DNA of 24,000 nt, from positions 98,882 through 122,881 of the forward strand of contig NZ_BMZP01000001.1 in assembly GCF_014652855.1 (NCBI RefSeq). Reading direction: 5' to 3'. Positions 1-13,658 of this stretch are shown here, one piece after another. Position numbers and translations under genes: made by a program. Positions within the stretch are counted from its first letter, which is position 1, and each line of letters starts with the position of its first letter. Under the pieces are notes generated by a model. It saw nothing but the letters and a program-made list of their open reading frames with translations, did not search any database and was not told the DNA's origin. The DNA comes from Novosphingobium pokkalii (GTDB taxonomy: Bacteria > Pseudomonadota > Alphaproteobacteria > Sphingomonadales > Sphingomonadaceae).

Positions 1-2
1 AT

Positions 3-506
3 GCGCGGATCAAGGGCTTTGAAGTGGAAGTGGTGGCCGCCCCGGTGCGCGGCCTGACGGTGACCGGCTCGCTCGGCTATACCGACGCCAAGTATACCAG
101 CGTCGATGGCCCCGCGCAGGTGGCAACCTCCACGCTCCAGGCCGGGGTCTTTGCCGGTGCCACGCTGCCCAAGACGCCCAAGTGGAAGTTCAACGTCTCG
201 CCGCGCTACCAGGCCGATCTGGGCAGCCACGGCAGCCTGGTGTTCCTGGCCGACGTCACGTTCACCAGCACGATGAAGAACGACACCGAAGGCACGTTCC
301 TGCTCGATCGTCCGAGCACCACCGTGCTCAACGGCTCGATCACCTATCGCGCGCCCGGCGGGAACTGGGAACTGACCGCCGGCGGCACCAACCTGACCAA
401 CGAGCGCTATCTCACCACCGGCCAGGCGCAGCTTGCCGGCGGCCAGATCTACGGCACCTACAGCCGCCCGGCCGAATGGTATGCCCGCGTTGGCGTGAAG
501 TTCTGA
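3..506 (+). CDS. TonB-dependent receptor, C-terminal fragment (5' end lies outside the window)
   Basis: The frame is open from the window edge (ARIKGFEVEVVAAP...). The sequence has the alternating beta-strand character of an outer-membrane barrel (GSLGYTDAKY, ITYRAPGGNWELTAGGTNLTNERY). It ends ...WYARVGVKF with a terminal Phe, the same style as the full-length receptor at 13665-15983 (...VRGTLKF). Confidence 0.8.
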   Translation, partial: ARIKGFEVEVVAAPVRGLTVTGSLGYTDAKYTSVDGPAQVATSTLQAGVFAGATLPKTPKWKFNVSPRYQADLGSHGSLVFLADVTFTSTMKNDTEGTFLLDRPSTTVLNGSITYRAPGGNWELTAGGTNLTNERYLTTGQAQLAGGQIYGTYSRPAEWYARVGVKF

Positions 507-515
507 TGCAAGCGA

Positions 516-548
516 CCGGGCGGTGGCCTGTCCGCCGCCCGGTTTCCT
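516..548 (+). terminator. Candidate intrinsic terminator after the receptor gene
   Basis: CCGGGCGG (516-523) pairs perfectly with CCGCCCGG (535-542). Up to 3 further pairs are possible inside the loop. It is followed by only TTT then CCTCCC, so the U-tract is weak. Confidence 0.4.
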
Positions 549-580: not shown

Positions 581-1114
581 ATGCCCGAAGCCGCCCACAC
601 CGAATTCTGGAAAGACATCAAGCCGGTGGAGAAAGTCTTCCGCGACGGTGGCTTGCCCGAAGTCTACATGCCCAAGATCGCCGAAGGCGACGAACGCTAT
701 TGGGTGCCGATCAGCGAGACGGTGTTTTCCAAGCCCGTGTGGATCAGCCCGGCCAAGAACATGTGGGCCGACGTGCTGATGAGCAAGCAGGCCGGCCTGG
801 TCAACCGCCACTACCACCCGCACCCGATCTGGGCCTACACGATCAGCGGCAAGTGGGCCTATCTCGAACATTCGTGGACGGCCACCGCCGGTGACTTCAT
901 CTATGAAACGCCTGGCGAGAGCCACACGCTGGTCTGCTATGAACACGAAGACCCGATGAAAGTGTTCTTCGTGGTGTCCGGCCCGCTGATGTGGCTGGAC
1001 GAGGCCGGCAACACCATCGGCCATTACGACGTGTTCGACTACATGGCCGCCGCCCGCGCGCACTATGCCGCTGTGGGTATCGGCGCCGATTACGTCGACA
1101 CCCTGATCCGCTGA
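581..1114 (+). CDS. Cupin protein 1, 2,4'-dihydroxyacetophenone dioxygenase-like (ChrR-like cupin), 177 aa
   Basis: ATG at 581 is preceded by GGAGAG (569-574). The longer 182-1114 ORF overlaps the receptor gene in another frame. Cupin motifs: HYHPH...YLEH...GDFIYETPGESHTLV. The size (177 aa) and motif layout match my recollection of the DAD family. No search was run. Confidence 0.75.
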   Translation: MPEAAHTEFWKDIKPVEKVFRDGGLPEVYMPKIAEGDERYWVPISETVFSKPVWISPAKNMWADVLMSKQAGLVNRHYHPHPIWAYTISGKWAYLEHSWTATAGDFIYETPGESHTLVCYEHEDPMKVFFVVSGPLMWLDEAGNTIGHYDVFDYMAAARAHYAAVGIGADYVDTLIR

Positions 1115-1133
1115 ACGAACGGAGCATCCCCCC

Positions 1134-1670
1134 ATGACCGTGATGACCGCCCCGCCGTCTGACAAGGCCGCGATTGTCGACGTGAAATTCCCGCACAAGG
1201 CGCTGGTCGAGCGCCTCAGCCCCGGCGGCCGCTATATCGATGCCGCCACCGACGTGGACAGCCCCTGGGTGCCGTTCGGCGATGGCGCGGCGATCAAGCA
1301 CCTCGCCTTCGATGTGCGGCAGAACCTGTTTTCCAACATCCTGTGGGTCAAGGGGCCCGGCGTGATCGGCACGCATTTCCACCGCGGCACGATCACCATG
1401 GTCTGCCTGGAAGGGTCGGTCCGCTATCTGGAATACGATTGGGTGGCAACGCCGGGCGGCCTGATCCTAGAAACGCCGGGCGAAAGCCACACCCTGGTCA
1501 CCGATCATCCGCAGGGCTGCAAGCTGTTCGGCTGGATGCAGGGGCCGATCGACTTCTACGATGCCGATGCCAACCTGGTCGATACCACTGACGTGTGGTG
1601 GTTCATCAACCACTACGAAACGCACTGCCGCGAGCACGGCATCGCGATCAATCCCAAGCTCTATCTGTAA
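1134..1670 (+). CDS. Cupin protein 2, DAD-like paralog, 178 aa
   Basis: ATG at 1134 with GGAG at 1121-1124, 19 nt after the upstream stop. Motifs: SPWVPFGD...GVIGTHFHRG...RYLEYDWVATPGGLILETPGESHTLV...VWWFINHYETHCREHGI. Clear paralog of the 1681-2214 gene. Confidence 0.8.
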   Translation: MTVMTAPPSDKAAIVDVKFPHKALVERLSPGGRYIDAATDVDSPWVPFGDGAAIKHLAFDVRQNLFSNILWVKGPGVIGTHFHRGTITMVCLEGSVRYLEYDWVATPGGLILETPGESHTLVTDHPQGCKLFGWMQGPIDFYDADANLVDTTDVWWFINHYETHCREHGIAINPKLYL

Positions 1671-1680
1671 GGCGCGCGCC

Positions 1681-2214
1681 ATGGCATCGATGAAAGCACC
1701 GCCGTCCTCGGCCTATGAAATCGTCCAGGTTCCCGAACTCTATGGCGATCTGATCCGCGCGCGCGGGGTGGAAGGCACCTATGTCGGCGCCGGGGAGGCG
1801 GAAAGCCCGTGGGTGCCGTTCGGCGACAACGCCGCCATCCGCCACCTGGCGTTCGACGTGCGCGAGAACATCTACGTCAACATCCTGTGGATCAAAGGCC
1901 CCGGCGTGATCGGCACGCACAAGCACCGGGGCAAAGTTTGGGCGATCGGGCTGGAAGGCTCGTTCCGCTACCTGGAATACGACTGGGTGTGCCGGCCGGG
2001 CGAATTCATCACCGAGACCCCCGGCACCGCGCATACCCTGGTGACCGACGATCCCCAGGGCATGAAGGCCCTGTTCCACATGCAGGGCGCCAACGAGTTC
2101 TTCGATGCCCAGGGCAACCACGTGGAAACGCTCGACGTGTGGTGGTTCATGAACCACTACGAAAGCCATTGCCGCGAGCACGGCATTCCCATCAACAAGC
2201 AGCTCTACCTCTGA
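1681..2214 (+). CDS. Cupin protein 3, DAD-like paralog, 177 aa
   Basis: ATG at 1681, 10 nt after the previous stop. The ORF-track start at 1561 would overlap the previous gene. Motifs: SPWVPFGD...GVIGTHKHRG...RYLEYDWVCRPGEFITETPGTAHTLV...VWWFMNHYESHCREHGI. By eye it is roughly two-thirds identical to cupin 2 over the C-terminal ~135 aa. Confidence 0.8.
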   Translation: MASMKAPPSSAYEIVQVPELYGDLIRARGVEGTYVGAGEAESPWVPFGDNAAIRHLAFDVRENIYVNILWIKGPGVIGTHKHRGKVWAIGLEGSFRYLEYDWVCRPGEFITETPGTAHTLVTDDPQGMKALFHMQGANEFFDAQGNHVETLDVWWFMNHYESHCREHGIPINKQLYL

Positions 2215-2230
2215 ACGGCCGAGCCGTGTG

Positions 2231-3340
2231 ATGCAGGCGCCCGTGCTTTCCAATCCGGTTCTGGCCATCCCGGTTCTGGCCGGCCCGCCACGCGGCACTT
2301 ATCTGCGGCGGTGCTGGTATGTCGTGGGCTGGGCCGACGCCCTTGGCGAGAGCCCGCAGGACCGGATTTTCCTGGAGGAACCGGTCGCCCTGTTTCGCGA
2401 CGAGGCGGGGGTGGCCCATGCCGTGGGCGGGCGCTGTCCGCATCGCTTCGCGCCGCTGGGGCAGGGCAGGGTGCTGGGGGGCGCCCTGGCCTGCCCTTAT
2501 CACGGACTGCGCTTTGATGCGCAGGGCGCCTGCGTTCACAATCCCCATCCCGGCGGCCAGCTTCCAGCCGCGCGCCTGCCGGTCTATCCGCTGGTCGAGC
2601 GGCACGGTCTGCTGTGGATCTGGATGGGAGAGGCCGAGGTAGCCGATCCCGCGCTGATCCCGGACTTTGCCTGGCTCACCGATCCGGCCTGGGCCGTGGT
2701 GCGCGGCGCCACGCGGGCCGAAGGACACTATGAACTCTACAGCGACAACATCCTCGATCTCAGCCATGCCAACTTCGTGCATCCGGCCCTTGTCGCCCGC
2801 GCCTTCACCGAAGGCGAGCGGCGCTTCTGGCAGGATGGCGAGACGGTCCACGCCGAATATGTCCGCCTGGACGATACCCTGTCCAACGGCATCGGCGCGA
2901 TGCTCGGCCGCGTCGGGCAGCCGCAGGATTTCTATGGCGAAGTGACCTGGCATGCGCCGGCCGTGCTGCGCTTCGACTATGTCGCAGGGCCGCCGGGCAC
3001 GCCGCGAGACGCTTGCACCCTGCTGCCCTCGCTTCATGCCTTCACCCCCGAAACGCCCGACACCACGCACTATGTCTGGGCCACCGGGCGCGATTTCGCG
3101 CTGGGCGATGCTGCCTTTTCGCAAGCCATGCAGGCCGCGCTGGAACATGCCTTTGAACGGGAGGACATGCCGATCATCCGCGACAGCCACCGTCTTATGC
3201 GCGGGGCGGATTTCTGGTCGCTCAAGCCGCTGGTGCTGGGCGGCGATGGTGGCGGCATCCGCGCGCGCCGCCTGCTGCAACGCCTGATCGCGCGCGAGCA
3301 GGGCGCCGCGCTGCCCCAAGACAACGAAGCCGACGCCTGA
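2231..3340 (+). CDS. Rieske [2Fe-2S] non-heme-iron oxygenase, VanA / phthalate-family (class IA) oxygenase component
   Basis: Rieske motif CPHRFAPLGQG...CPYHGLRF. Mononuclear-iron motif NILDLSHANFVHP (D-x2-H-x4-H). Family-typical N-terminus CWYVVGWADAL. Start is ATG 2231 or GTG 2228. No reductase gene is adjacent. Confidence 0.85.
   Translation: MQAPVLSNPVLAIPVLAGPPRGTYLRRCWYVVGWADALGESPQDRIFLEEPVALFRDEAGVAHAVGGRCPHRFAPLGQGRVLGGALACPYHGLRFDAQGACVHNPHPGGQLPAARLPVYPLVERHGLLWIWMGEAEVADPALIPDFAWLTDPAWAVVRGATRAEGHYELYSDNILDLSHANFVHPALVARAFTEGERRFWQDGETVHAEYVRLDDTLSNGIGAMLGRVGQPQDFYGEVTWHAPAVLRFDYVAGPPGTPRDACTLLPSLHAFTPETPDTTHYVWATGRDFALGDAAFSQAMQAALEHAFEREDMPIIRDSHRLMRGADFWSLKPLVLGGDGGGIRARRLLQRLIAREQGAALPQDNEADA
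2255..2281 (+). repeat. Exact 12-bp direct repeat CCGGTTCTGGCC x2 (15-nt period) in the 5' end of the Rieske gene
   Basis: Copies at 2255-2266 and 2270-2281 are identical and separated by ATC. They encode PVLA-I-PVLA in the N-terminal extension upstream of the conserved WYV region. Confidence 0.9.
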
Positions 3341-3366
3341 GCGCGGCATTCCTGGAGAGGAACACC

Positions 3367-4206
3367 ATGGCCATTCTCGATCGTTTCAGCATCGCCGGGC
3401 GCAGTGCCTTTGTCACCGGCGCCGCCAGTGGCATCGGCCTCGCCTATGCCCAGGCCATGGCCGAAGGCGGCGCGGCCGTCACTCTCGCCGATGTCGACCA
3501 CGCCGGGGCCGAGCGCGAAGCCGCGCTGCTGCGCGAGGCCGGGCACGAGGCGCGCGCGGCGCACTGCGACGTATCCAGCTTCACCGCCGTGGCCGCCACG
3601 TTCGACGATCACGCGCAGGCCTATGGCGGGCTCGACATCTGCTTTGCCAACGCCGGGATCGATGCCGGCGCGGGCTTCTGGAATCCTGCCGGTCATCGCA
3701 ATCCCGATGGCCAGGTCGATACTTATGATCCCGCGCGCTGGGATCGCTCGATCGCGGTCAATCTCAATGGCGTGTTCTACACCGTGTCCAACGCGGTGCG
3801 GATCATGAAGCAACCCGGCCGCGCCAATGGCCGCAGCGGCGGCTCGATCATCTGCACCGCGTCCAACGCTGGGCTGGTGACAGAGCCGATCGTGGGCCTG
3901 CCCTATATGCCCGCCAAGGCCGGGGTGCTGCACATGGTCCGTGCGCTGGGCCTGGAACTGGCCGAATTCCGCATCCGCGTGAACGCCATCGCGCCCGGCC
4001 CTTTCGTGACCAACATCGGCGGCGGCTGGCTCAAGAAAGACCCGGTGGCCCGCGCCGCCTGGGACGCGATCGTGCCGCTGGGCAAACTGGCCGAAACCGA
4101 GCAGATCAAGCCGCTCGCCCTGCTGCTGGCCTCCGATGCGTCCGATTACATGACCGGCAGTCACGTGGTGATCGACGGCGGCATGATGCTGGGCAAGTAC
4201 CAGTAA
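3367..4206 (+). CDS. Short-chain dehydrogenase/reductase (classical SDR)
   Basis: RBS GGAGAGG lies upstream of ATG 3367. Motifs: TGAASGIGLA (TGxxxGxG), FANAGI, catalytic S...YMPAKAG (YxxxK) and a PG motif (IAPGPF). Confidence 0.9.
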   Translation: MAILDRFSIAGRSAFVTGAASGIGLAYAQAMAEGGAAVTLADVDHAGAEREAALLREAGHEARAAHCDVSSFTAVAATFDDHAQAYGGLDICFANAGIDAGAGFWNPAGHRNPDGQVDTYDPARWDRSIAVNLNGVFYTVSNAVRIMKQPGRANGRSGGSIICTASNAGLVTEPIVGLPYMPAKAGVLHMVRALGLELAEFRIRVNAIAPGPFVTNIGGGWLKKDPVARAAWDAIVPLGKLAETEQIKPLALLLASDASDYMTGSHVVIDGGMMLGKYQ

Positions 4207-5213
4207 TGCGCGCCGTGGTGATGCAGGGGCTGCACCGGCCCCTGGCGCTGGAAACCGTGCCCGATCCCACGCCCGGCGCGGGCGACATGGTGGTGCGCGT
4301 GGGCCGCTGCGGTATCTGCGGGTCTGATCTGCACATGACCGAGGATGCCGCCTATGGCCAGGGCGCGGGCTCGATTCTCGGCCATGAATTCGCCGGAGAA
4401 GTGGTCGCGCTGGGGCAGGGCGTCGAAGGCTGGCGCGTGGGCGATCGCGTGGCGGTCAGCCCACTCAAGAGTTGCGGGGCCTGCCCGGCCTGCCGCGCGG
4501 GCGAAGTGCAATGGTGCGCCGCTTTCGGCCTCCAGGGCGGTGGCTATGCCGAATATGCCCTGACCCGGCCCAACCAGTGCGTCCGCCTGCCGCACAGCGC
4601 GAGCCTGGCCGATGGCGCCATCATCGAGCCGCTGGCCGTGGCCTTGCACGGTATCGGCCTGTCTGGCCTGCGCCGGGGCGACAAGGTGCTGGTGCTCGGC
4701 GCCGGGCCGATCGGGCTGGCCGTGGCTTTCTGGGCGCGCCAGCATGGGGCGGGCCGGGTGGTGGTGCAGGATATCGCCCAATGGCAACGCGATCGCGCCC
4801 TGGCCATGGGCGCGCACGATTTCGTGGTGGCGCCCGACGATCCAGTCGGCACGGCGCAGCGCGCGCTGGGTGGCCCGGCTGATCTGGTGTTCGAGTGCGT
4901 CGGCGTCCCCGGCCTGATCGCGCAAGCCGTCGAGCAGTTGCGCAATCGCGGCACGGTGGTGCTGCTTGGCCTGTGCACCCGGCCCGATACGCTCAACACC
5001 TTTGCCATGCTGTCCAAGGAAGTGCGCCTCGTCACGTCCGCGTTCTTTACCACCGGGGAATACGCCGCTGCGCTCGACGCGCTCGATCGCGGCCTAACCG
5101 AACCGCGCCTTCTGGTCACCGATACCATCGCGCTGGCGCAGACGCCGGATGTGTTTGAAAGCCTGCGCCACCGCACCCACCAGTGCAAAGTCTTGATCGC
5201 GCCCGATGGCTAG
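4206..5213 (+). CDS. Zn-dependent alcohol dehydrogenase (MDR family)
   Basis: Its ATG overlaps the SDR stop (TAATG, 4204-4208). Catalytic-Zn motifs: CGICGSDLH and GHEFAGEV. Structural-Zn motif: CGACPACRAGEVQWC (C-x2-C-x2-C-x7-C). Rossmann motif: VLGAGPIGLA. Confidence 0.9.
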   Translation: MRAVVMQGLHRPLALETVPDPTPGAGDMVVRVGRCGICGSDLHMTEDAAYGQGAGSILGHEFAGEVVALGQGVEGWRVGDRVAVSPLKSCGACPACRAGEVQWCAAFGLQGGGYAEYALTRPNQCVRLPHSASLADGAIIEPLAVALHGIGLSGLRRGDKVLVLGAGPIGLAVAFWARQHGAGRVVVQDIAQWQRDRALAMGAHDFVVAPDDPVGTAQRALGGPADLVFECVGVPGLIAQAVEQLRNRGTVVLLGLCTRPDTLNTFAMLSKEVRLVTSAFFTTGEYAAALDALDRGLTEPRLLVTDTIALAQTPDVFESLRHRTHQCKVLIAPDG

Positions 5214-5944
5214 GCCTGGGCCAGGAACGCGCGCAGCAGGGTCTGGCCATCGGGCGTGTCGGCATTGGCGGCGCGCAGCGCGGGCACCGAAAAGCCGGCG
5301 CGGGTGATCGCCTCGGCATAGACGTCATAGCTGCCGGCCATGATCGCGGCGTCGAATTCGGGATGGAACTGCACGCCCCAGGCGCGCGGGGCATAGCGCA
5401 CCGCATGGTGCGGATCGTGCCCGCTGGTGGCCAGCACTTGCGCGCCTTCGGGCAGGGCCAGGACCGACTGGAAATGGAACACCATCATCCGCGCCACCGG
5501 GGGCAGCGCGGAAAACAGCGCGTCCTCCGCGCCCGCTGCGGTGCGGGCCACGTCCACCCCGCCAAACATCGCCCCGCGCGGATTGTCGGCCACCGTGCCG
5601 CCCAGGGCATGGGCCAGCAACTGGTGGCCAAAGCACACGCCCAGGATCGGCGCGCCCTGCGCCATGGCCGCGCGCGCCCAGGCGGCGGTGCGCTCGATCC
5701 ATGGGTGGCCGTCGGTCACCATGTCGATCGCCCCAGTGATGATCGTGGCGCGTACGTCTGCCGGATCGGGCAGCGGCTCGTCGCGATAGACTTTGACCGC
5801 CAGGATATCCTCGCGCGCCACGCCGCAGCCTGCGCCGAACCAGGCCAGTTCGTCGCCATGCACGGCGCAAGTGGCGGGCATGTCGTCATAGGATGTGGCG
5901 GGCTGGATGATGAGCAGGGGCTTGGGCAAGGAAAGGCCTTTCAC
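5210..5944 (-). CDS. Class-I glutamine amidotransferase-like protein (GuaA-type GATase domain, COG0518-like)
   Basis: Nucleophile elbow ILGVCFGHQLLAHALGG and the His/Glu of the triad in VQFHPEF. GTG start at 5944, 9 nt after the stop of the upstream fusion gene. No obvious SD, so translational coupling is possible. Confidence 0.8.
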   Translation of the reverse strand: MKGLSLPKPLLIIQPATSYDDMPATCAVHGDELAWFGAGCGVAREDILAVKVYRDEPLPDPADVRATIITGAIDMVTDGHPWIERTAAWARAAMAQGAPILGVCFGHQLLAHALGGTVADNPRGAMFGGVDVARTAAGAEDALFSALPPVARMMVFHFQSVLALPEGAQVLATSGHDPHHAVRYAPRAWGVQFHPEFDAAIMAGSYDVYAEAITRAGFSVPALRAANADTPDGQTLLRAFLAQA

Positions 5945-5953
5945 GGCTGGATG

Positions 5954-8227
5954 CTACAGGGTCTTGAGGCTTTTGCGCAGCGCCTCGACAAAGAACGCGA
6001 CTTCGCTTTCCGTCCAGGTGAGCGCAGGCCGCAGCTTGAATGCCGAACGGTGTGGGCCGGCCGTGCCCACCAGCACGCCGTTTTCGCGCATCGCCTCCAC
6101 CAGGCGCGCGGCCTGCGCGGTGGCCGGGGTGCGTGCGGCAGGATCACTGGTGAATTCCAGCCCGGTCAGCATGCCGCGCCCGCGCACATCACCGATCAGC
6201 GGAAAGGCCTGCGCCAGATCGCGCAACTGCGCGCGCAGCAGATCGCCGATGCGGTTGGCCCGCGTCAGCAGGTCCTCCCGCGCGATCACGTCGAGCACCG
6301 CCTGCCCGGCGGCACAGGCCACGCTGTTGCCGCCAAACGTGCTGAACACCTCGCACTGCGCGTAAAACGCCTGCCACAGCGCGCGGCGGGTGAGGACCAC
6401 GCCCAACGGATGGCCATTGCCCACCGGCTTGCCCAGGGTGATCAGGTCCACATGCTCCAGCCCTTGCACGGCAAAGCCCCAGAACTGCCCGAGCCGGCCA
6501 AGGCCCGCCTGCACTTCATCGGCAATCACCAGGGCTTCGCTCGCGCGGGCCGCCTTGGCCAGTCCTGCCATGTAGCCGGGCGGCTGGTCGGGCACGCCAT
6601 TGCTGGTCAGCGCCGTGTCCACCATCAGGAAGGCCGGGGCATGGCCGGCGCTGGCCAGGTGCGCCGTGGCTTCGGCCCAACTGGTCGCGGGATCGGGCGC
6701 GAACCCGCGATAGAGATCGGGGGCGGGCAGGCAGGCGACATGGGGCGGCGGCGCCTTGGTCAGCGGTGACAGTTCCACGGTGGCCGCCGTGATCCCGTGA
6801 TAGGCCCCTTCCATCACCACGGCGCCGTGCCGCCCGGTGGCAAAGCGGGCGATCTGCGCAGCCAGGTCGTTGGCCTCGCTGCCGGAATTGACGAAGGCGC
6901 AAACGTCGAACCCCGCCGGCGCCTGCGCCAGCAGGGCTTGCGCATAGGCGCCGGTACTGTCGGCCAGATAGCGCGTGTTGGCGTTGAGCGCGGCGGCCTG
7001 GCGGGCGATGGCGCGCACCACGGCGGGATGCGAATGGCCCACTTGCGGCACGTTGTTGTAGGCATCGAGATAGCGCGCGCCATCTGCCCCGATCAGCCAG
7101 GCCCCTTCGCCGCGCGTCAGGTGCAGCGGGCTCTGATAGAAATGCCAGACTTTGCCCATCGCTGCCTCGCGCTGGGCGATCAGTGCCGCCTGGGTCGCTG
7201 CCGGATCGGGCATGAGCGCTGGCACCGGAAAGCCGCAGGCACGGCGCAGCATGCGGGTCGCTTCCGTGCGCCCCACGGCCAGCAGCTTGCCCAGCATGGC
7301 GCCATGCTTGTGCCCGCCGCCCAGGTGCAGATCCGGCGCCGTGTCGGCCGGATCATGGCGCGCTGCCGCGACCAGCACGGTATTGACCAGGCGCAGGCAG
7401 CACAGATCGAACACCAGGTCGATTTCCGCCTCTTCCAGCGGGCACACCGCGTCAAAGCCTTGCGTCACGTCTGCCAGGATCGCCAGGGGATCGGCCTGCG
7501 CATCGGGAAAGCAATCGGCCGCCGTCGCCAGATCGGCCAGCAGCGGGCCGTGCAGCATGTCGCCAAAGTCGATCACGCCCACCACGCGCGTCGGCTCGGC
7601 GGGATCGACCAGCAAGTTGCCCATGTGTGCGTCCTGATGGACCACCTGGTGGCGGGTGCGCGCCAGGGCCGGATAGATGCGCGCGTCCGCCTCGGCCAGC
7701 ACCTGCGCGCATTGCGCGCGCAAGGCGTTGTCGGCAATGCGGGGCAGGGCAGGGGCCAGCGCCGTCACGCGGGCAAGATCCCAGTCGTGGCGATTGCTGC
7801 CCGCGTGCGGGTGGAAAAAGCCGCGCAGCGCCAGGCTCAGCCGCGCCACGAACCCGCCGATCGCCCGCCGCAGCCCGGCCGGATCGGCGCAGGCGGCAAA
7901 CACGTCCTGCGCGATGGCGCCATCCACATAGGTCAGGAGGCGCAGGATATGGTCCGTGCCGTCTTCGCCCCGGATCATGCTGCGCAATGCCCCGCCGCGT
8001 GTCTCCACCATGCGCGGCACGGGCAGCGCGGGATCGACCCGCGCGATATGGCCCAGCGCGCCGATCTGAAAATCCACCGTGCCCACTGCCTCGTCGCGGT
8101 GAGACAGTTTGACGATCACGCCGGGTCCATCGCCCGTGGTGAGATGCCAGGTCTGGTCCCGCTCCGATCGCAGCGGGCGCCAGTCGCCGCGCAGGCCCCA
8201 TTCCGCCAGCACCCGATCCTGCACCAT
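5954..8227 (-). CDS. Bifunctional fusion: N-terminal APH / hydroxylysine-kinase-like phosphotransferase plus C-terminal class-III PLP enzyme of the ETNPPL/PHYKPL (AGXT2L) type, 757 aa
   Basis: Kinase half (aa 1-~330): catalytic loop VVHQDAHMGNLLVD (H-x-D-x4-N) and VIDFGD. PLP half (aa ~345-757): NNVPQVGHSHP, NSGSEANDLA, AYHG, ADEVQAGLGRLG, TLGKPVGNGHP (Lys600 as Schiff-base candidate), FGGNSVACA, GPHR. GC3 becomes coding-like only downstream of ATG 8227. An alternative GTG at 8260 would add MTDGPPQFPLG. The rest of the 1283-aa ORF is antisense to the permease gene. Confidence 0.85.
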   Translation of the reverse strand: MVQDRVLAEWGLRGDWRPLRSERDQTWHLTTGDGPGVIVKLSHRDEAVGTVDFQIGALGHIARVDPALPVPRMVETRGGALRSMIRGEDGTDHILRLLTYVDGAIAQDVFAACADPAGLRRAIGGFVARLSLALRGFFHPHAGSNRHDWDLARVTALAPALPRIADNALRAQCAQVLAEADARIYPALARTRHQVVHQDAHMGNLLVDPAEPTRVVGVIDFGDMLHGPLLADLATAADCFPDAQADPLAILADVTQGFDAVCPLEEAEIDLVFDLCCLRLVNTVLVAAARHDPADTAPDLHLGGGHKHGAMLGKLLAVGRTEATRMLRRACGFPVPALMPDPAATQAALIAQREAAMGKVWHFYQSPLHLTRGEGAWLIGADGARYLDAYNNVPQVGHSHPAVVRAIARQAAALNANTRYLADSTGAYAQALLAQAPAGFDVCAFVNSGSEANDLAAQIARFATGRHGAVVMEGAYHGITAATVELSPLTKAPPPHVACLPAPDLYRGFAPDPATSWAEATAHLASAGHAPAFLMVDTALTSNGVPDQPPGYMAGLAKAARASEALVIADEVQAGLGRLGQFWGFAVQGLEHVDLITLGKPVGNGHPLGVVLTRRALWQAFYAQCEVFSTFGGNSVACAAGQAVLDVIAREDLLTRANRIGDLLRAQLRDLAQAFPLIGDVRGRGMLTGLEFTSDPAARTPATAQAARLVEAMRENGVLVGTAGPHRSAFKLRPALTWTESEVAFFVEALRKSLKTL

Positions 8228-8392
8228 GCCAAGGGGAAACTGTGGTGGCCCGTCCGTCACGCAATACCCCGCTGCTGCCTGTCGCTGCTGGGCATAGCGC
8301 CGCGCCAACTGAGATCGCAAGTGCAATGTGGTTGCGGGGCGCGGGCTGGGCGGCCATACCACTGCCCAACGTTTCCGGGGAATTCCTTGCAT

Positions 8393-11850: not shown

Positions 11851-12909
11851 TCAGGCAGCCAGTGCCTCGGCGCGGATCTGCGCCTCCAGCAGACGCCGCA
11901 CCTGTAGCGCGCCATTGTCCACCCGCGCGCTCACTTCGCGGGGCAGGGGCGCGTCGCCGCGCAGAACGGTCTCGATCGCGCTGATCGCGTCCACGTCCTC
12001 GGGCTGGATGCGCGTGCCCATGGCCAGGTTCATCGCGCCCAGCGCCGGGTTGTCGTGCCCGAAATCGCGCGCCGTCGCCACGAAGTAGTGCAGGCGGCCG
12101 GGCGCGGCAGGGGTGATCATGTGAATGAAGTTCTGCGTGCCCAGCGCTTTCCCGCTAGCATGGTCGCTGATCGTGCCGCCGGTGCGGATCAGGCACGGCC
12201 CCATGTATTGCGCGTCGAATTCCTGGTCCACCAGCGCGTCCTGATCGGGAAATTGCGCCTTGATCAAGGGATTGGGTGGAATGCCCACGGCCTTGCGCGC
12301 CACGGTCAGCCCACCGCTGCGCGCTTCCACCGTCACCGGTAGAGCCGCCACCTTTTCGCCCGAGGGAATGGTGGTCGCGTGGATGAAAGTCACATGGCTC
12401 AGGTCGAGCAGGTTTTCGATGAGCAGGGTATAGCGCGCTTCCACCGTGGCCACGGGGTGGATTTCCACTGTCCAGCCTGGCGCATCCAGCCCGATCGCCG
12501 CAAGGTCGGGCAGCAGGGCAGGATCGGCGGCGCTCTCCTCGCCGGTCCAGATCCACACCACGCCACCGCGCTCCACCACCGGATAGCGGCGCAGGGTGGC
12601 ATGCTGCGGCACGCCGTTCTGGCTCGGTACGCGCTGGCATGCGCCATCCGGCCCGAAAGTGAAGCCGTGATAGCCGCACTGCACACTGTCGCCCACCAGA
12701 CGCCCCTTTTCCAGGGGAAACGCCCGGTGCGGGCAAATGCCCGAGACGGCCACGGCCGTGCCGTCTTCCTTGCGGTAGAGCAGCACGCGCTCGCCCAGGA
12801 TGTCGCGCGCCACCAGGTTGCGGCTGACTTCCGTAGCGGTGGCTGCCGCCCACCACTGGCGGCGCGGATAGGGTTGCTCGGTGGTCAATGGATAGCTGGC
12901 ATGGGCCAT
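11851..12909 (-). CDS. Rieske [2Fe-2S] non-heme-iron oxygenase, VanA / phthalate-family, second copy, 352 aa
   Basis: Rieske motif CPHRAFPLEKG...CGYHGFTF. Iron motif NLLDLSHVTFIHA. Paralogous to the 2231-3340 gene (for example ERGGVVWIWTGEESAADPALLPD versus ERHGLLWIWMGEAEVADPALIPD). ATG at 12909 has GGGAGA about 8 nt upstream and is preferred over GTG at 12951. Confidence 0.85.
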   Translation of the reverse strand: MAHASYPLTTEQPYPRRQWWAAATATEVSRNLVARDILGERVLLYRKEDGTAVAVSGICPHRAFPLEKGRLVGDSVQCGYHGFTFGPDGACQRVPSQNGVPQHATLRRYPVVERGGVVWIWTGEESAADPALLPDLAAIGLDAPGWTVEIHPVATVEARYTLLIENLLDLSHVTFIHATTIPSGEKVAALPVTVEARSGGLTVARKAVGIPPNPLIKAQFPDQDALVDQEFDAQYMGPCLIRTGGTISDHASGKALGTQNFIHMITPAAPGRLHYFVATARDFGHDNPALGAMNLAMGTRIQPEDVDAISAIETVLRGDAPLPREVSARVDNGALQVRRLLEAQIRAEALAA

Positions 12910-12941
12910 GGCCCGATCTCCCGAAATTGTTCTGCGCCATG

Positions 12942-12979
12942 TTTGTCGCACGACAAAATCGAGTTTGTCAATTGACCAA
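12942..12979. promoter_or_regulatory. Two tandem palindromic operators (candidate TetR sites) in the Rieske-2/TetR divergent region
   Basis: Site 1: TTTGTCG-CA-CGACAAA (12942-12957), perfect 7-bp arms. Site 2: TTTGTCAA-TTGACCAA (12964-12979), one mismatch, with a perfect 10-bp core GTCAATTGAC. They share the half-site TTTGTC. Centres are 22 bp apart, about two helical turns. Confidence 0.6.
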
Positions 12980-12995
12980 GTCGGGTCCGCCGGGC

Positions 12996-13658
12996 ATGAC
13001 GCTTGGCATGACTGTCTCCACCACCAAATCGGCCAAGGCGCGCCGTCCGCAACGCTATGATGGTGCCGACAATCGCCGCGCCGTGCTCGATGCGGCGCTG
13101 ACGGTGTTTGCCGATCTGGGTTTCGAAGCGGCCAGCACCCGCGCCATCGCTGCTGCCGCCGGGCTGGAGCAAGGCCATCTCGCCTACTACTTTCCGTCCA
13201 AGGCCGCCCTCTGGCAACAAGTGGTGGAGGCCTTTGCCCGCGAAGGGGAAGACCTGCTGCGCGCGGCGCTGGAAGGGGACGACCTGTCTCGGCCTGAACA
13301 GACCGCGGCTCGCGTCCTGCCCGGCCTGCTGCGCGTGTTCGCCCGCAATCCGCGGCTCACGCGGCTGATGCTTCAGGAATTTTCCGTGCATTCGCCGCGC
13401 CACCAATGGGTGGTGGATACGTTCGGCGCCCCGGTGTGGCGCTTGCTGGAACCGCTGTTCGCGGCCTTGCGCGCGCACGGCCGCCTTTCGGGCGCGCCGC
13501 CGGCGGTGGCCTATTTCAACCTCGTCGGCGCGGCGCTGATCACCTTTGGCAATCGCGACCTGATCCTGCGCCTGGCCGGATGCGATACCGGCGAGGAAGC
13601 CACGGTCGACGCGGCCATTGCCTACATATTGGGGCCGGTGCTGGCACCGGCCCCCTGA
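12996..13658 (+). CDS. TetR/AcrR-family transcriptional regulator
   Basis: HTH region RRAVLDAALTVFADLGFEAASTRAIAAAAGLEQGHLAYYFPSKAALW. Start is ATG 12996 or 13008, neither with a clear SD. The ORF-track start at 12888 would overlap the Rieske-2 start region. Confidence 0.85.
   Translation: MTLGMTVSTTKSAKARRPQRYDGADNRRAVLDAALTVFADLGFEAASTRAIAAAAGLEQGHLAYYFPSKAALWQQVVEAFAREGEDLLRAALEGDDLSRPEQTAARVLPGLLRVFARNPRLTRLMLQEFSVHSPRHQWVVDTFGAPVWRLLEPLFAALRAHGRLSGAPPAVAYFNLVGAALITFGNRDLILRLAGCDTGEEATVDAAIAYILGPVLAPAP

What the first reader, a model, noticed from the sequence alone, without database searches (positions are those of the whole stretch)
581..5213. Operon-like block of three DAD-type cupins, a VanA-type Rieske oxygenase, an SDR and a Zn-ADH behind a TonB-dependent receptor
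What the sequence shows:
- Six same-strand genes are packed with gaps of 19, 10, 16, 26 and -1 nt. The last junction is TAATG coupling.
- The block sits directly downstream of an outer-membrane TonB-dependent receptor gene.

Established enzymology:
- The DAD family cleaves the C-C bond of an aryl alpha-hydroxyketone with O2: 2,4'-dihydroxyacetophenone gives 4-hydroxybenzoate plus formate.
- VanA-type Rieske enzymes O-demethylate or hydroxylate aromatic acids.
- SDR and MDR dehydrogenases oxidise benzylic or side-chain alcohols.

Inference:
- This would be a pathway that imports an aromatic compound with an oxygenated C2/C3 side chain, such as a lignin- or bisphenol-derived aryl diol or ketol.
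- The side chain would be oxidised to an alpha-hydroxyketone and then cleaved oxidatively, with ring demethylation or hydroxylation alongside.
- I know of no characterised pathway with this gene combination. TonB-dependent uptake of lignin-derived aromatics does have precedent in sphingomonads.
Basis: partly seen in the sequence, partly recalled or inferred. Interest (0 to 1): 0.75.

Follow-up and report, generated by a model that had tools for sequence, protein, structure and literature searches.

The report
Aryl-ketol side-chain cleavage operon (sphingomonad)
This is a real gene cluster, conserved across sphingomonads, that most likely imports lignin-type aromatics with an oxygenated C2/C3 side chain, oxidises them to alpha-hydroxyketones and cuts the side chain off with O2; related strains switch it on with lignin fragments, but none of its enzymes has been tested on a natural substrate.

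Summary
Six intact same-strand genes lie behind the 3' end of a TonB-dependent receptor (TBDR) gene, with gaps of 19, 10, 16, 26 and -1 nt. They encode three cupins, a VanA-type Rieske oxygenase, an SDR and a Zn-ADH. The organism is Novosphingobium pokkalii.

Cupin 1 is a true orthologue of 2,4'-dihydroxyacetophenone dioxygenase (DAD): 65% identity, and nearly all pocket residues kept. Cupins 2 and 3 belong to an uncharacterised sister clade. They keep the 3-His iron site and Tyr93, but their substrate pocket is remodelled.

The block is part of a larger conserved unit (MFS, AraC, TBDR, cupins, Rieske, SDR, ADH), divergent from MarK/acvCDEF-like aryl-ketone genes. It corresponds gene for gene to N. 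aromaticivorans Saro_1863-1874. There, Saro_1872 is the putative O-demethylase dmtS, and ligL follows directly.

A four-gene version in Novosphingobium sp. MBES04 is induced 45-89-fold by lignin fragments. The best inducers are beta-hydroxypropiovanillone and 2,4'-dihydroxyacetophenone. Minimal cupin-SDR-ADH modules with an MFS transporter, a porin and an aromatic-type regulator occur in beta- and gamma-proteobacteria.

The substrate, and why there are three cupins, remain unknown.

The parts
1..506 (+). 3' end (last ~160 codons) of a TonB-dependent receptor gene; the gene starts upstream of the window
   Evidence: ORF 24-506. Weak TIGR01783 C-terminal match. The full 857-aa Plug + TonB_dep_Rec_b-barrel protein is present in identical contigs L002/L003. 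A TBDR is kept next to the cupins in 42 of 55 related loci.
514..544 (+). GC-rich 13-bp hairpin just after the TBDR stop codon: likely a partial terminator or attenuator between the TBDR gene and cupin 1
   Evidence: Centroid structure -33.3 kcal/mol, z = -2.66 against shuffles. A hairpin of different sequence sits at the same place in six other species, and one of them is followed by a T-run.
581..1114 (+). Cupin 1: orthologue of 2,4'-dihydroxyacetophenone dioxygenase (DAD), 177 aa
   Evidence: E 9e-85 to PDB 4p9g; 65% identity and placement in the canonical DAD clade. It keeps His76/78/114, Tyr93, Trp61, Asp63, Phe129, Trp137 and Tyr153. Cupin_7 scores above the cut-off.
1134..1670 (+). Cupin 2: DAD-family paralogue of a sphingomonad-restricted subclade, 178 aa
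   Evidence: E 1e-20 to DAD; 27% identical to cupin 1 and 60% to cupin 3. The 3-His site, Tyr93 and Glu108 are kept, but the pocket is changed: W61F, D63N, S49I, F129G, V131M, W137F, Y153F, M156H. The AF2 model is closest to DAD among solved folds. Homologues are more than 72% identical across Sphingomonadales.
1681..2214 (+). Cupin 3: DAD-family paralogue of a broadly distributed subclade, 177 aa
   Evidence: E 2e-19 to DAD. The 3-His site and Tyr93 are kept; W61Y, D63N, E112T. Homologues of 65-73% identity occur in Paraburkholderia, Paenalcaligenes, Chromohalobacter, Hyphococcus and Streptomyces. In Paraburkholderia and Chromohalobacter the gene sits directly upstream of SDR + ADH.
2231..3340 (+). 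VanA/DdmC-type Rieske non-haem-iron oxygenase, alpha subunit only (alternative GTG start at 2228); positional orthologue of N. aromaticivorans Saro_1872 'dmtS'
   Evidence: Rieske + VanA_C domains. Best solved relatives are DdmC 3gb4 (5e-64) and 7qwt (6e-60). CPH..CPYH and NxxDxxHxxxxH motifs are present. The N. aromaticivorans gene table places it at the same cluster position as Saro_1872. dmtS genetics are in PMC8091115. No reductase gene is in the window.
3367..4206 (+). Classical SDR, probably NAD-dependent, 279 aa
   Evidence: adh_short / adh_short_C2; TGAASGIG and YMPAK motifs. Best solved relatives are the Candida parapsilosis (S)-specific carbonyl reductases 3ctm/7dll (4e-39). Kept in 51 of 55 related loci.
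4206..5213 (+). Zn-dependent MDR alcohol dehydrogenase of the polyol/butanediol-dehydrogenase type, 335 aa; its start overlaps the SDR stop (TAATG)
   Evidence: ADH_N + ADH_zinc_N. Catalytic and structural Zn motifs and GAGPIG are present. Best solved relatives are 4ej6, RspB, ketose reductase and (R,R)-butanediol dehydrogenase. Kept in 53 of 55 loci. The SDR/ADH stop-start overlap is also seen in Paraburkholderia and Chromohalobacter.

Best explanation
The block is the catalytic core of a sphingomonad catabolic unit for phenolic compounds with an oxygenated C2/C3 side chain: aryl-1,2-diols, aryl ketols and Hibbert-type ketones from lignin. I propose the following mechanism.

(1) The substrate crosses the outer membrane through the TBDR and the inner membrane through the MFS transporter encoded just upstream. 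An AraC-type regulator senses an aryl ketol.

(2) The SDR and the MDR-type Zn-ADH oxidise the benzylic (C-alpha) alcohol of 1-aryl-1,2-diols to 2-hydroxy-1-aryl-ketones. They probably have opposite stereospecificity.

(3) The three Fe(II) cupins bind the alpha-hydroxyketone on a 3-His iron site and cleave the CO-C(OH) bond with O2. The products are the aromatic acid (4-hydroxybenzoate, vanillate or syringate) plus formate, acetate or glycolate. Cupin 1 takes DAD-like substrates (Ar-CO-CH2OH). Cupins 2 and 3 take ketols with other ring or C-beta substituents, or opposite C-beta enantiomers.

(4) The Rieske oxygenase (DmtS-like) O-demethylates the ring of a substrate or product, using a reductase encoded elsewhere.

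What is shown: gene identities, catalytic motifs, conserved synteny, induction of an orthologous operon by aryl ketols, and the alphaS-specific benzylic dehydrogenase activity of the SDR at this cluster position.

What is inferred: the actual substrates, the direction of the dehydrogenase reactions, the division of labour among the cupins, and the role of the Rieske enzyme.
For: Gene identities and intact active sites.

Cupins. Cupin 1 keeps essentially the whole DAD pocket described in PMC4219425. Cupins 2 and 3 keep the iron ligands, Tyr93 and Glu108. After DAD and two uncharacterised cupins (3ebr, 3cjx), the next solved fold is Dke1 (3bal), another 3-His C-C-cleaving dioxygenase.

Synteny. 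The cupin-SDR-ADH triad is the conserved core. It recurs with an MFS transporter, a porin and an AraC- or XylR-type regulator in Paraburkholderia, Chromohalobacter and a P. aeruginosa plasmid. Each cupin type occurs without the others in some genomes, so they are not obligate partners.

MBES04. Cluster G-II (cupin 2-type, cupin 3-type, SDR, ADH, with an adjacent AraC gene) is transcribed from one start site. It is induced 45-fold by GGGE and 89-fold by lignin. Its promoter responds best to beta-hydroxypropiovanillone and also to 2,4'-dihydroxyacetophenone, but not to vanillin. I tied it to this family through 87% identity of its promoter region to the sequence upstream of cupin 2 in N. profundi.

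SG61-1L. SDR 474, which lies behind two DAD genes, oxidises only the alphaS isomers of GGE.

N. aromaticivorans. Saro_1868-1874 has the same gene order and is followed by ligL. Mean logCPM compared with glucose RPKM implies strong co-induction of Saro_1866-1875 in some aromatic condition other than PCA. The enzyme that cleaves the side chain of GP-1/GD in that organism is explicitly unknown.

Related loci carry a PCMH/VAO-type 4-alkylphenol flavoprotein inserted between the SDR and ADH genes. The cluster sits beside MarK/acvCDEF-like aryl-ketone genes.

The closest solved relatives of the SDR are the C. parapsilosis carbonyl reductases. From my own knowledge, these interconvert 2-hydroxyacetophenone and 1-phenyl-1,2-ethanediol.
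Against: - No enzyme of this cluster has been assayed on an aryl ketol.
- MBES04 induces its version with beta-hydroxypropiovanillone but does not consume that compound, so the inducer need not be the substrate.
- SDR 474 is a poor GGE dehydrogenase (kcat/Km 0.013-0.08 per uM per s). I matched it to this SDR by the described gene context only, not by sequence.
- The N. aromaticivorans model expects vanillin as the cleavage product, whereas DAD chemistry gives the acid.
- The induction inferred for Saro_1866-1875 is indirect, because the fold-change tables were truncated.
- The Rieske gene is missing from about 40% of related loci and has no reductase nearby.
- Cupin 3 scores just under Pfam's Cupin_7 cut-off.
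- SDR and MDR similarity at 30-35% identity does not predict substrate.
Confidence: 0.55

Rival explanations
1. A 4-hydroxyacetophenone/acetovanillone route of the Alcaligenes sp. 4HAP type. The SDR or ADH oxidises 1-arylethanols to aryl methyl ketones. The Rieske enzyme acts as a side-chain monooxygenase that hydroxylates the methyl (or C-beta methylene) group to give the alpha-hydroxyketone. The cupins then cleave it.
For: Cupin 1 is a close DAD orthologue. From my own knowledge, the VanA family includes the methyl-group hydroxylase TsaM. A PCMH/VAO-type 4-alkylphenol flavoprotein is inserted in related clusters. The cluster adjoins aryl methyl ketone (MarK/acv) genes. MBES04 lacks the Rieske gene in its cluster and cannot consume beta-hydroxypropiovanillone.
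Against: Wild-type N. aromaticivorans carries the whole cluster yet cannot grow on acetovanillone until MarK is mutated, and it then needs acvC and acvF. The genetic evidence for dmtS points to ring O-demethylation of 3-O-methylgallate. The Rieske gene is absent from many clusters that keep cupin, SDR and ADH. The closest solved relative is an O-demethylase, DdmC.
Confidence: 0.15
2. Only cupin 1 is a dioxygenase. Cupins 2 and 3 are metal-dependent ketol isomerases or tautomerases (for example interconverting Ar-CH(OH)-CO-R and Ar-CO-CH(OH)-R), or non-catalytic partners, that feed cupin 1.
For: The pockets of cupins 2 and 3 differ at 8-10 positions from DAD. Cupin folds include isomerases, such as the phosphomannose isomerases and KdgF lower in the fold list. 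GP-1/GP-2 interconversion is a recognised step for which an enzyme has not been excluded.
Against: Cupin 2/3-type genes occur with SDR + ADH but without any cupin 1 in MBES04, many Erythrobacteraceae, Paraburkholderia and Chromohalobacter, so they must give a productive reaction on their own. They keep Tyr93 and Glu108, to which the DAD structure paper assigns roles in peroxide chemistry and O2 access. Their nearest solved folds are C-C-cleaving dioxygenases.
Confidence: 0.1
3. The block is not one pathway. A cupin-SDR-ADH module for a non-lignin diol or ketol (for example phenylglycols from catecholamine or tyrosol-type compounds, or aliphatic acyloins) happens to lie beside an unrelated aromatic-acid O-demethylase and a TBDR.
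For: The Rieske, TBDR, cupin 1 and cupin 3 genes are each variably present. The ADH's relatives are polyol/butanediol dehydrogenases. The Streptomyces cupin 3-type gene has a quite different context, beside a GCV_T-domain gene and an ABC transporter. The P. aeruginosa plasmid version lies near hpaBC and an aminotransferase.
Against: 28 of 55 loci keep all seven genes in the same order across genera at 60-95% protein identity. Inducers in MBES04 are lignin-type aryl ketols. Regulators are AraC/XylR aromatic-type. ligL, MarK/acv and PCMH-type genes are recurrent neighbours.
Confidence: 0.15

Closest known systems
2,4'-dihydroxyacetophenone dioxygenase (DAD, EC 1.13.11.41) of Alcaligenes sp. 4HAP / Burkholderia sp. 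AZ11 (PDB 4p9g, 5bpx)
   Same: Cupin 1 is 65% identical, the same length, and keeps the 3-His iron site and nearly every pocket residue. Cupins 2 and 3 share the fold, the 3-His site, Tyr93 and Glu108.
   Different: Cupins 2 and 3 are only 27-28% identical to DAD. They form a separate clade and replace the phenol-binding Trp61/Asp63 pair and most hydrophobic pocket residues. There are three paralogues in tandem, and they are embedded with dehydrogenases, a Rieske oxygenase and a TBDR. None has been assayed.
N. aromaticivorans DSM12444 Saro_1863-1875 (includes dmtS = Saro_1872 and ligL = Saro_1875; next to marK-acvCDEF, Saro_1862-1858)
   Same: Same genes in the same order: IclR, ADH, VOC, MFS, AraC, TBDR, three ~177-aa cupins, Rieske, SDR, Zn-ADH. 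This is the orthologous locus in the model organism.
   Different: In the window the cluster ends at the ADH gene, which meets a convergent glutamine amidotransferase gene; ligL and the intradiol dioxygenase are not adjacent. In N. aromaticivorans only dmtS has been studied, by deletion (minor 3-MGA demethylation; the protein was never purified).
Novosphingobium sp. MBES04 cluster G-II / L-III (MBENS4_1161-1158)
   Same: Cupin 2-type ('DAD'), cupin 3-type, SDR and Zn-ADH in the same order, with an adjacent AraC gene. They form one transcription unit induced by lignin fragments.
   Different: It lacks cupin 1, the Rieske gene and the TBDR, and lies behind a tRNA gene. The strain does not consume the best inducer. 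The authors left three of the four products as 'hypothetical'.
Candida parapsilosis carbonyl reductases (SCR, an SDR; RCR, an MDR) acting on 2-hydroxyacetophenone / 1-phenyl-1,2-ethanediol
   Same: SCR (3ctm, 7dll) is the closest solved relative of the SDR (4e-39). An SDR is paired with a Zn-MDR. The chemistry (aryl-1,2-diol to alpha-hydroxyketone) is what a DAD-type enzyme needs upstream. The substrate and pairing statements come from my own knowledge.
   Different: Identity is only about 30-35% and the system is fungal. The similarity is suggestive, not diagnostic. The MDR here is closer to polyol/butanediol dehydrogenases.
LigD/LigL/LigN/LigO C-alpha-dehydrogenases of the beta-aryl-ether pathway
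   Same: They are stereospecific NAD-dependent SDRs that oxidise benzylic alcohols of lignin-derived compounds. The SDR at this cluster position in SG61-1L (474) oxidises the alphaS isomers of GGE. ligL abuts the cluster in N. aromaticivorans.
   Different: 474 lies outside the GGE-dehydrogenase clade, with 15-20% identity to the Lig enzymes, and is 100- to 1000-fold less efficient on GGE.
VanA / DdmC / TsaM-type Rieske monooxygenases
   Same: Rieske + VanA_C architecture and both metal motifs are present. DdmC is the best solved hit.
   Different: No VanB/DdmA/B-type reductase or ferredoxin gene is in the cluster or the window. The substrate is unknown. NCBIfam finds no equivalog.

Membership tests
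DAD family (2,4'-dihydroxyacetophenone dioxygenase-type cupins) | Single-domain cupin of ~177 aa with significant sequence similarity to solved DAD | tested here: met
   phmmer to 4p9g/5bpx: cupin 1 9e-85, cupin 2 1e-20, cupin 3 2e-19. Cupin_7 scores 36.4, 30.4 and 25.5 bits against a cut-off of 27, so cupin 3 is marginally below it. The cupin 2 AF2 model is closest to DAD.
DAD family (2,4'-dihydroxyacetophenone dioxygenase-type cupins) | 3-His iron site (His76, His78, His114) plus Tyr93 | tested here: met
   All three cupins have H-x-H ... H-T-L and the aligned Tyr.
DAD family (2,4'-dihydroxyacetophenone dioxygenase-type cupins) | Substrate pocket for a 4-hydroxyphenyl ketol (Trp61/Asp63 phenol contacts; Phe129, Trp137, Tyr153) | tested here: inconclusive
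   Met for cupin 1: all are kept, with only F43I, V82I, F148Y and M156A differing. Not met for cupins 2 and 3: W61F/Y, D63N, F129G in cupin 2, W137F, Y153F, M156H. So cupin 1 is a member in the narrow sense. Cupins 2 and 3 are family relatives that probably take other substrates.
DAD family (2,4'-dihydroxyacetophenone dioxygenase-type cupins) | O2-dependent cleavage of an alpha-hydroxyketone to two carboxylic acids | not testable with these tools
   Needs enzyme assays.
VanA-type (phthalate-family) Rieske non-haem-iron oxygenase | Rieske [2Fe-2S] motif CxH...CxxH, mononuclear-iron motif, VanA_C catalytic domain | tested here: met
   CPHRF...CPYH at residue 69 and NILDLSHANFVH at residue 173. 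Rieske 2.5e-18 and VanA_C 1.1e-44. DdmC 5e-64.
VanA-type (phthalate-family) Rieske non-haem-iron oxygenase | Cognate reductase (VanB-type) encoded alongside | tested here: not met
   No flavin/ferredoxin reductase gene is in the window. The same is reported for dmtS in N. aromaticivorans. This does not exclude membership of the oxygenase family; the electron donor is simply unknown.
Classical SDR | TGxxxGxG cofactor motif, NAG, catalytic YxxxK | tested here: met
   TGAASGIG (residue 17), NAG (95), YMPAK (180). adh_short 1.9e-41.
Zn-dependent medium-chain dehydrogenase (MDR) | Catalytic Zn ligands (Cys, His-Glu), structural Zn Cys4 loop, GxGxxG | tested here: met
   CGICGSD (residue 35), GHE (59), CGACPACRAGEVQWC (90), GAGPIG (165). 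ADH_N and ADH_zinc_N.
Operon (single transcription unit) | Same strand, short or overlapping junctions, no internal terminators, conserved order | tested here: met
   Gaps of 19/10/16/26/-1 nt. No signals above chance. Order is conserved in 28 of 55 loci.
Operon (single transcription unit) | Co-transcription shown experimentally | not testable with these tools
   Available only for relatives. MBES04's four-gene version has one transcription start and graded induction. The co-induction pattern in N. aromaticivorans is indirect.
TonB-dependent receptor | N-terminal Plug plus 22-strand barrel with a C-terminal TonB-box-family terminus | tested here: met
   Only the C-terminus is in the window. 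The full protein, with Plug + TonB_dep_Rec_b-barrel domains, is in identical contigs L002/L003.

The most novel reading that the evidence does not exclude
Cupins 2 and 3 would define a new functional class of DAD-like dioxygenases. They would cleave chiral, C-beta-substituted aryl ketols, such as the Hibbert ketone GP-1 (to vanillate + acetate) or 2,3-dihydroxy-1-guaiacylpropan-1-one (to vanillate + glycolate). The two paralogues, and the SDR/MDR pair, would each handle opposite stereoisomers. This would be an O2-dependent, cofactor-free route for removing lignin C3 side chains. It would supply the 'as yet uncharacterized' cleavage step of G-diketone/GP-1 catabolism in N. aromaticivorans and explain what the phenylpropanone-induced operon of MBES04 does.
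Probability: 0.3. Interest if true: 0.7.

Novelty: new variant of a known kind. Interest (0 to 1): 0.5.

Why it matters
Bacterial funnelling of depolymerised lignin is limited by unknown 'upper pathway' steps for monomers that keep an oxidised C2/C3 side chain: Hibbert ketones, hydroxypropiovanillone, aryl glycols. This cluster is conserved in more than 200 species-level genomes, almost all of them sphingomonads. It lies next to ligL and the MarK/acv aryl-ketone genes in the main model organism, and it is one of the operons most strongly induced by lignin in another strain. Yet its cupins and dehydrogenases are annotated as 'hypothetical', or even as 'tRNA modification GTPase'. It gives named, directly testable candidates (Saro_1869-1871, 1873 and 1874, and their N. 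pokkalii orthologues) for an acknowledged missing C-C cleavage step. It also points to a compact three- or four-gene module that could be moved into production strains. If the cupins prove to be ordinary DADs with overlapping specificity, the finding is a useful annotation fix but not a surprise.

Tried and rejected
- Plasmid origin. Megablast found only partial 79-82% matches on Novosphingobium humi megaplasmids, which are unannotated there. The exact sequence is chromosomal-scale N. pokkalii.
- MBES04 sharing the TBDR context. It does not. Its promoter region contains a tRNA gene, and it matches the N. profundi arrangement that starts with the cupin 2-type gene.
- Fold-change data for Saro_1866-1875 on G-diketone, GP-1, vanillin and ferulate. 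The stored supplement is truncated to the PCA comparison and one glucose sample. Only an indirect inference from mean logCPM was possible.
- Literature by locus tag (Saro_1868-1874, SARO_RS09360-85) and by 'cupin' + hydroxypropiovanillone, Hibbert or acetovanillone. Nothing characterises the cupins, SDR or ADH.
- A reductase partner for the Rieske protein. None is in the window.
- Obligate hetero-oligomer of the three cupins. Rejected because each type occurs without the others in some genomes.
- Acetovanillone as the substrate through methyl hydroxylation. This is unlikely, because wild-type N. aromaticivorans with the full cluster cannot grow on it.
- Sequence-level confirmation that SG61-1L SDR 474 is the orthologue. 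Not done; the match rests on the context stated in that paper.
- NCBIfam gave no equivalog for any of the six proteins.

Full report
**Observation**

The window carries six intact + strand ORFs at the coordinates given:
- cupin 1, 581-1114
- cupin 2, 1134-1670
- cupin 3, 1681-2214
- Rieske oxygenase, 2231-3340
- SDR, 3367-4206
- Zn-ADH, 4206-5213

The intergenic distances are 19, 10, 16, 26 and -1 nt, and the SDR/ADH junction reads TAATG. The gene ending at 506 is the C-terminus of a TonB-dependent receptor. In the window it gives only a weak TIGR01783 match. The complete 857-aa Plug + barrel protein is present on contigs that carry an identical cupin 1.

Pfam finds Cupin_7 in all three small proteins, at 36.4, 30.4 and 25.5 bits against a cut-off of 27. 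It also finds Rieske + VanA_C, adh_short, and ADH_N + ADH_zinc_N. Catalytic motifs are intact everywhere:
- H-x-H...H-T-L in the cupins
- CPH...CPYH and NxxDxxHxxxxH in the Rieske protein
- TGAASGIG, NAG and YMPAK in the SDR
- both zinc sites and GAGPIG in the ADH

Promoter-like and terminator-like sites inside the block do not exceed the shuffle expectation.

**Organism and wider locus**

Cupin 2 is named by NCBI as a protein of Novosphingobium pokkalii. An identical cupin 1 lies on two NCBI assemblies and several JGI metagenome contigs. Those contigs show what lies upstream of the window: an AraC regulator, an MFS transporter, a VOC/glyoxalase-family protein, a second Zn-ADH and an IclR regulator. 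Divergent from these are a UPF0261 protein followed by biotin-carboxyl-carrier and biotin-carboxylase genes.

The divergent set matches the marK-acvCDEF acetovanillone genes of N. aromaticivorans, Saro_1862-1858 (PMC12624787). Downstream, the cluster ends at the ADH, whose stop meets a convergent glutamine amidotransferase gene (5210-5944).

**Comparative genomics**

A scan of one genome per species found relatives of cupin 2 in 208 genomes. The 80 best are nearly all labelled Sphingomonadales: Novosphingobium, Sphingomonas, Altererythrobacter, Aurantiacibacter, Erythrobacter, Chakrabartia and others. I mapped the window's proteins onto these loci. The recurrent order is IclR, ADH, VOC, MFS, AraC, TBDR, cupin 1, cupin 2, cupin 3, Rieske, SDR, ADH.

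Among 55 loci with at least 9 kb upstream and 7.5 kb downstream of cupin 2, the counts of genes kept are:
- ADH: 53
- SDR: 51
- MFS: 49
- cupin 3: 47
- cupin 1: 45
- TBDR: 42
- Rieske orthologue: 33
- all six enzymes plus the TBDR: 28

So cupin-SDR-ADH is the core, and the Rieske gene is the most dispensable member. Some relatives carry insertions between the SDR and ADH genes: a flavoprotein of the p-cresol methylhydroxylase / vanillyl-alcohol oxidase family (E = 0 to PDB 9ffk, 7e-165 to 1dii), an MBL-fold hydrolase and extra dehydrogenases. That again points to 4-alkylphenol side-chain chemistry.

**The three cupins**

Cupin 1 is 65% identical to the Alcaligenes sp. 4HAP enzyme and falls in the canonical DAD clade. 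I mapped the residues described in the DAD structure paper (PMC4219425) onto the alignment. Cupin 1 keeps:
- the iron ligands His76, His78 and His114
- Tyr93 and Glu108
- the phenol-binding Trp61 and Asp63
- Phe129, Val131, Leu135, Trp137 and Tyr153

Its only differences are conservative.

Cupins 2 and 3 are 60% identical to each other but only 27-28% identical to cupin 1 and DAD. They keep the three His, Tyr93 and Glu108, but the rest of the pocket is changed:
- W61 to F or Y
- D63 to N
- S49 to I
- V131 to M
- W137 to F
- Y153 to F
- M156 to H
- F129 to G, in cupin 2 only

An AlphaFold model of cupin 2 has moderate confidence (mean pLDDT 74). It matches DAD best, followed by two uncharacterised cupins and then acetylacetone dioxygenase Dke1.

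The most economical reading is the same chemistry on different substrates. The whole DAD-like family is small: 492 clusters at 50% identity with E <= 0.001 among 1.84 billion representatives.

Cupin 2-type proteins appear only in Sphingomonadales-type genomes, apart from three MAGs labelled otherwise: a Desulfuromonadales protein, and Hyphomonadaceae and Caulobacteraceae loci. Cupin 3-type proteins of 65-73% identity also occur in Paraburkholderia, Paenalcaligenes, Chromohalobacter, Hyphococcus and Streptomyces.

**A minimal module outside the sphingomonads**

- In Paraburkholderia silvatlantica the cupin 3-type gene sits in: AraC (divergent) | MFS - cupin - SDR - ADH - porin.
- In Chromohalobacter it sits in: XylR-type sigma-54 activator | cupin - SDR - ADH - MFS - OprB porin.
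- Both have the same SDR/ADH stop-start overlap as the window.
- A P. aeruginosa megaplasmid carries a canonical DAD (62% identical to cupin 1) followed by a homologous MFS gene (44%), an MDR annotated as 2,3-butanediol dehydrogenase (35% to the ADH), an SDR (30%) and a porin, with a divergent helix-turn-helix regulator 28% identical to the window's AraC.

A DAD-family cupin, an SDR, an MDR, an inner-membrane transporter, an outer-membrane channel and an aromatic-type regulator therefore form a recurrent unit. The sphingomonad version is an expanded form with three cupins, a TBDR instead of a porin, and often a Rieske oxygenase. Each cupin type occurs without the others somewhere, so an obligate hetero-oligomer is unlikely.

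**Published evidence on orthologous loci**

(a) N. aromaticivorans DSM12444. The gene table in the supplement of PMC8612281 lists Saro_1863-1874 with the same products and sizes in the same order. They are followed by Saro_1875 (SARO_RS09390), which that paper identifies as ligL.

Saro_1872 was named dmtS in PMC8091115. Deleting it together with ligM made conversion of syringate and 3-O-methylgallate to PDC stoichiometric, which suggests a minor O-demethylase role. The protein could not be purified, and no vanB-like gene is nearby.

The truncated RNA-seq supplement still shows a pattern. Saro_1866-1875 have mean logCPM values about 3-4 log2 units higher than their glucose RPKM would predict, relative to neighbouring genes. 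PCA does not induce them. This is indirect evidence for strong co-induction in some other aromatic condition. The same paper states that the enzyme cleaving the side chain of GP-1 or of the diol GD is 'as of yet uncharacterized'.

(b) Novosphingobium sp. MBES04. Cluster G-II/L-III (MBENS4_1161-1158) consists of a 'DAD', a protein annotated as 'tRNA modification GTPase', an SDR and a 'GroES' (ADH_N) protein, next to an AraC gene. The published 600-bp promoter fragment matches, at 87% identity, the region directly upstream of the cupin 2-type gene of N. profundi. There the order is cupin 2, cupin 3, SDR, ADH, AraC.

The four genes share one transcription start. They are induced 45-, 16-, 8- and 3-fold by GGGE, and up to 89-fold by a lignin preparation. 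The promoter responds most strongly to guaiacylhydroxypropanone (beta-hydroxypropiovanillone). It also responds to GGGE, MPHPV and 2,4'-dihydroxyacetophenone, but not to vanillin, veratryl alcohol, 2,6-dimethoxyphenol or guaiacol. MBES04 does not use the phenylpropanone as an energy source.

(c) Erythrobacter sp. SG61-1L. [quoted passage not shown] It oxidised only the (alphaS,betaR) and (alphaS,betaS) isomers of guaiacylglycerol-beta-guaiacyl ether, with NAD+ and low efficiency. I did not confirm the orthology by sequence.

**Dehydrogenases**

The closest solved relatives of the SDR are the Candida parapsilosis (S)-specific carbonyl reductases (4e-39). From my own knowledge, these interconvert 2-hydroxyacetophenone and 1-phenyl-1,2-ethanediol and work alongside an MDR-type (R)-specific enzyme. 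The ADH's relatives are polyol, ketose and (R,R)-butanediol dehydrogenases, which oxidise vicinal diols to acyloins. At 30-35% identity this is a lead, not proof. It does fit an SDR/MDR pair that produces alpha-hydroxyketones from both enantiomers of an aryl-1,2-diol.

**Most likely mechanism (confidence about 0.55)**

- Uptake runs through the TBDR and the MFS transporter.
- An AraC regulator senses an aryl ketol.
- The SDR and ADH oxidise the benzylic alcohol of aryl-1,2-diols.
- The cupins cleave the resulting 2-hydroxy-1-aryl-ketones with O2, giving the aromatic acid plus formate, acetate or glycolate.
- Cupin 1 handles DAD-type substrates. Cupins 2 and 3 handle other ring or C-beta substituents, or opposite C-beta enantiomers.
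- The Rieske enzyme demethylates the ring.

Shown: gene identity, active-site conservation, synteny, induction of an orthologous operon by aryl ketols, and stereospecific benzylic dehydrogenase activity at this cluster position. Inferred: everything about the actual substrates and the division of labour.

**Rival explanations**

- The Rieske enzyme as a side-chain hydroxylase that feeds the cupins (0.15). This is weakened by the acetovanillone phenotype of wild-type N. aromaticivorans and by the dmtS genetics.
- Cupins 2 and 3 as ketol isomerases or partners of cupin 1 (0.1). This is weakened by clusters that lack cupin 1.
- A chance juxtaposition of modules acting on non-lignin diols (0.15). 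This is weakened by the conserved order and the lignin-type inducers.

**Novelty and interest**

The enzyme families are all known, and the orthologous locus has been noticed in three strains. This is not a new kind of system. Still, no paper I could search characterises the cupins, the SDR or the ADH, and cupins 2 and 3 belong to an unstudied sister clade of DAD. I rate it a new variant of a known kind, with interest 0.5. The main value is a concrete, easily tested set of candidates for a missing C-C cleavage step in the catabolism of lignin-derived ketols.

Noticed in passing
window 514-544: A 13-bp GC-rich hairpin lies directly after the TBDR stop codon (-33 kcal/mol, z = -2.7). A hairpin of different sequence sits at the same spot in six other species, once with a T-run. 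It is probably a partial terminator or attenuator separating high TBDR expression from the enzyme genes.
   Followed up: partly
window 11851-12951 (-), 12888-13658 (+), 13665-15983 (-): There is a second VanA-type Rieske oxygenase, 33% identical to the first. It sits beside a TetR regulator and a second TonB-dependent receptor, and may be another aromatic uptake/oxidation unit. No reductase gene is here either.
   Followed up: partly
window 5210-8230 (-): A glutamine amidotransferase (PRK09065-type) has a stop that overlaps the ADH stop convergently. It is followed by a 758-aa fusion of an APH-family kinase domain and a class-III aminotransferase. In N. aromaticivorans this position is occupied by ligL and an intradiol dioxygenase instead.
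   Followed up: no
L030 13282-14901; L054 13179-16668; L043 11987-14016: Related clusters carry insertions between the SDR and ADH genes: a p-cresol methylhydroxylase / vanillyl-alcohol-oxidase-type flavoprotein (E = 0 to PDB 9ffk), an MBL-fold hydrolase and additional SDR/MDR genes. This links the module to 4-alkylphenol side-chain oxidation.
   Followed up: partly
L089 4167-10902; L091 4934-12161; L087 7535-13860: Minimal cupin-SDR-ADH modules with an MFS transporter, a porin and an AraC- or XylR-type regulator occur in Paraburkholderia, Chromohalobacter and a P. aeruginosa megaplasmid. The SDR/ADH stop-start overlap is conserved in the first two.
   Followed up: yes
proteins P0055, P0291, P0317; MBES04 GAM04457.1: Cupin 2/3-type proteins are annotated as 'tRNA modification GTPase' in several public records. 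This looks like a propagated mis-annotation.
   Followed up: partly
L090 5695-12660 (Streptomyces sp. ME02-8801-2C): A cupin 3-type protein, 68% identical to the window's, sits in a quite different context: after a GCV_T (aminomethyltransferase-like) gene and before a branched-chain-type ABC transporter. The subfamily may have other roles outside proteobacteria.
   Followed up: no
L088 (N. humi plasmid) and L018, L019, L022: In N. humi and some other Novosphingobium the order is shuffled (TBDR, cupin 1, cupin 3, SDR, ~2.7 kb insertion, cupin 2, ADH) and the Rieske gene is absent. In N. humi the locus is on a 1.3-Mb megaplasmid/chromid.
   Followed up: partly
window 17558-21205 (-): A full-length PutA gene (proline dehydrogenase + aldehyde dehydrogenase with a DNA-binding domain) lies here, beside a LysR regulator at 16092-17024. 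It is ordinary and unrelated to the finding.
   Followed up: no
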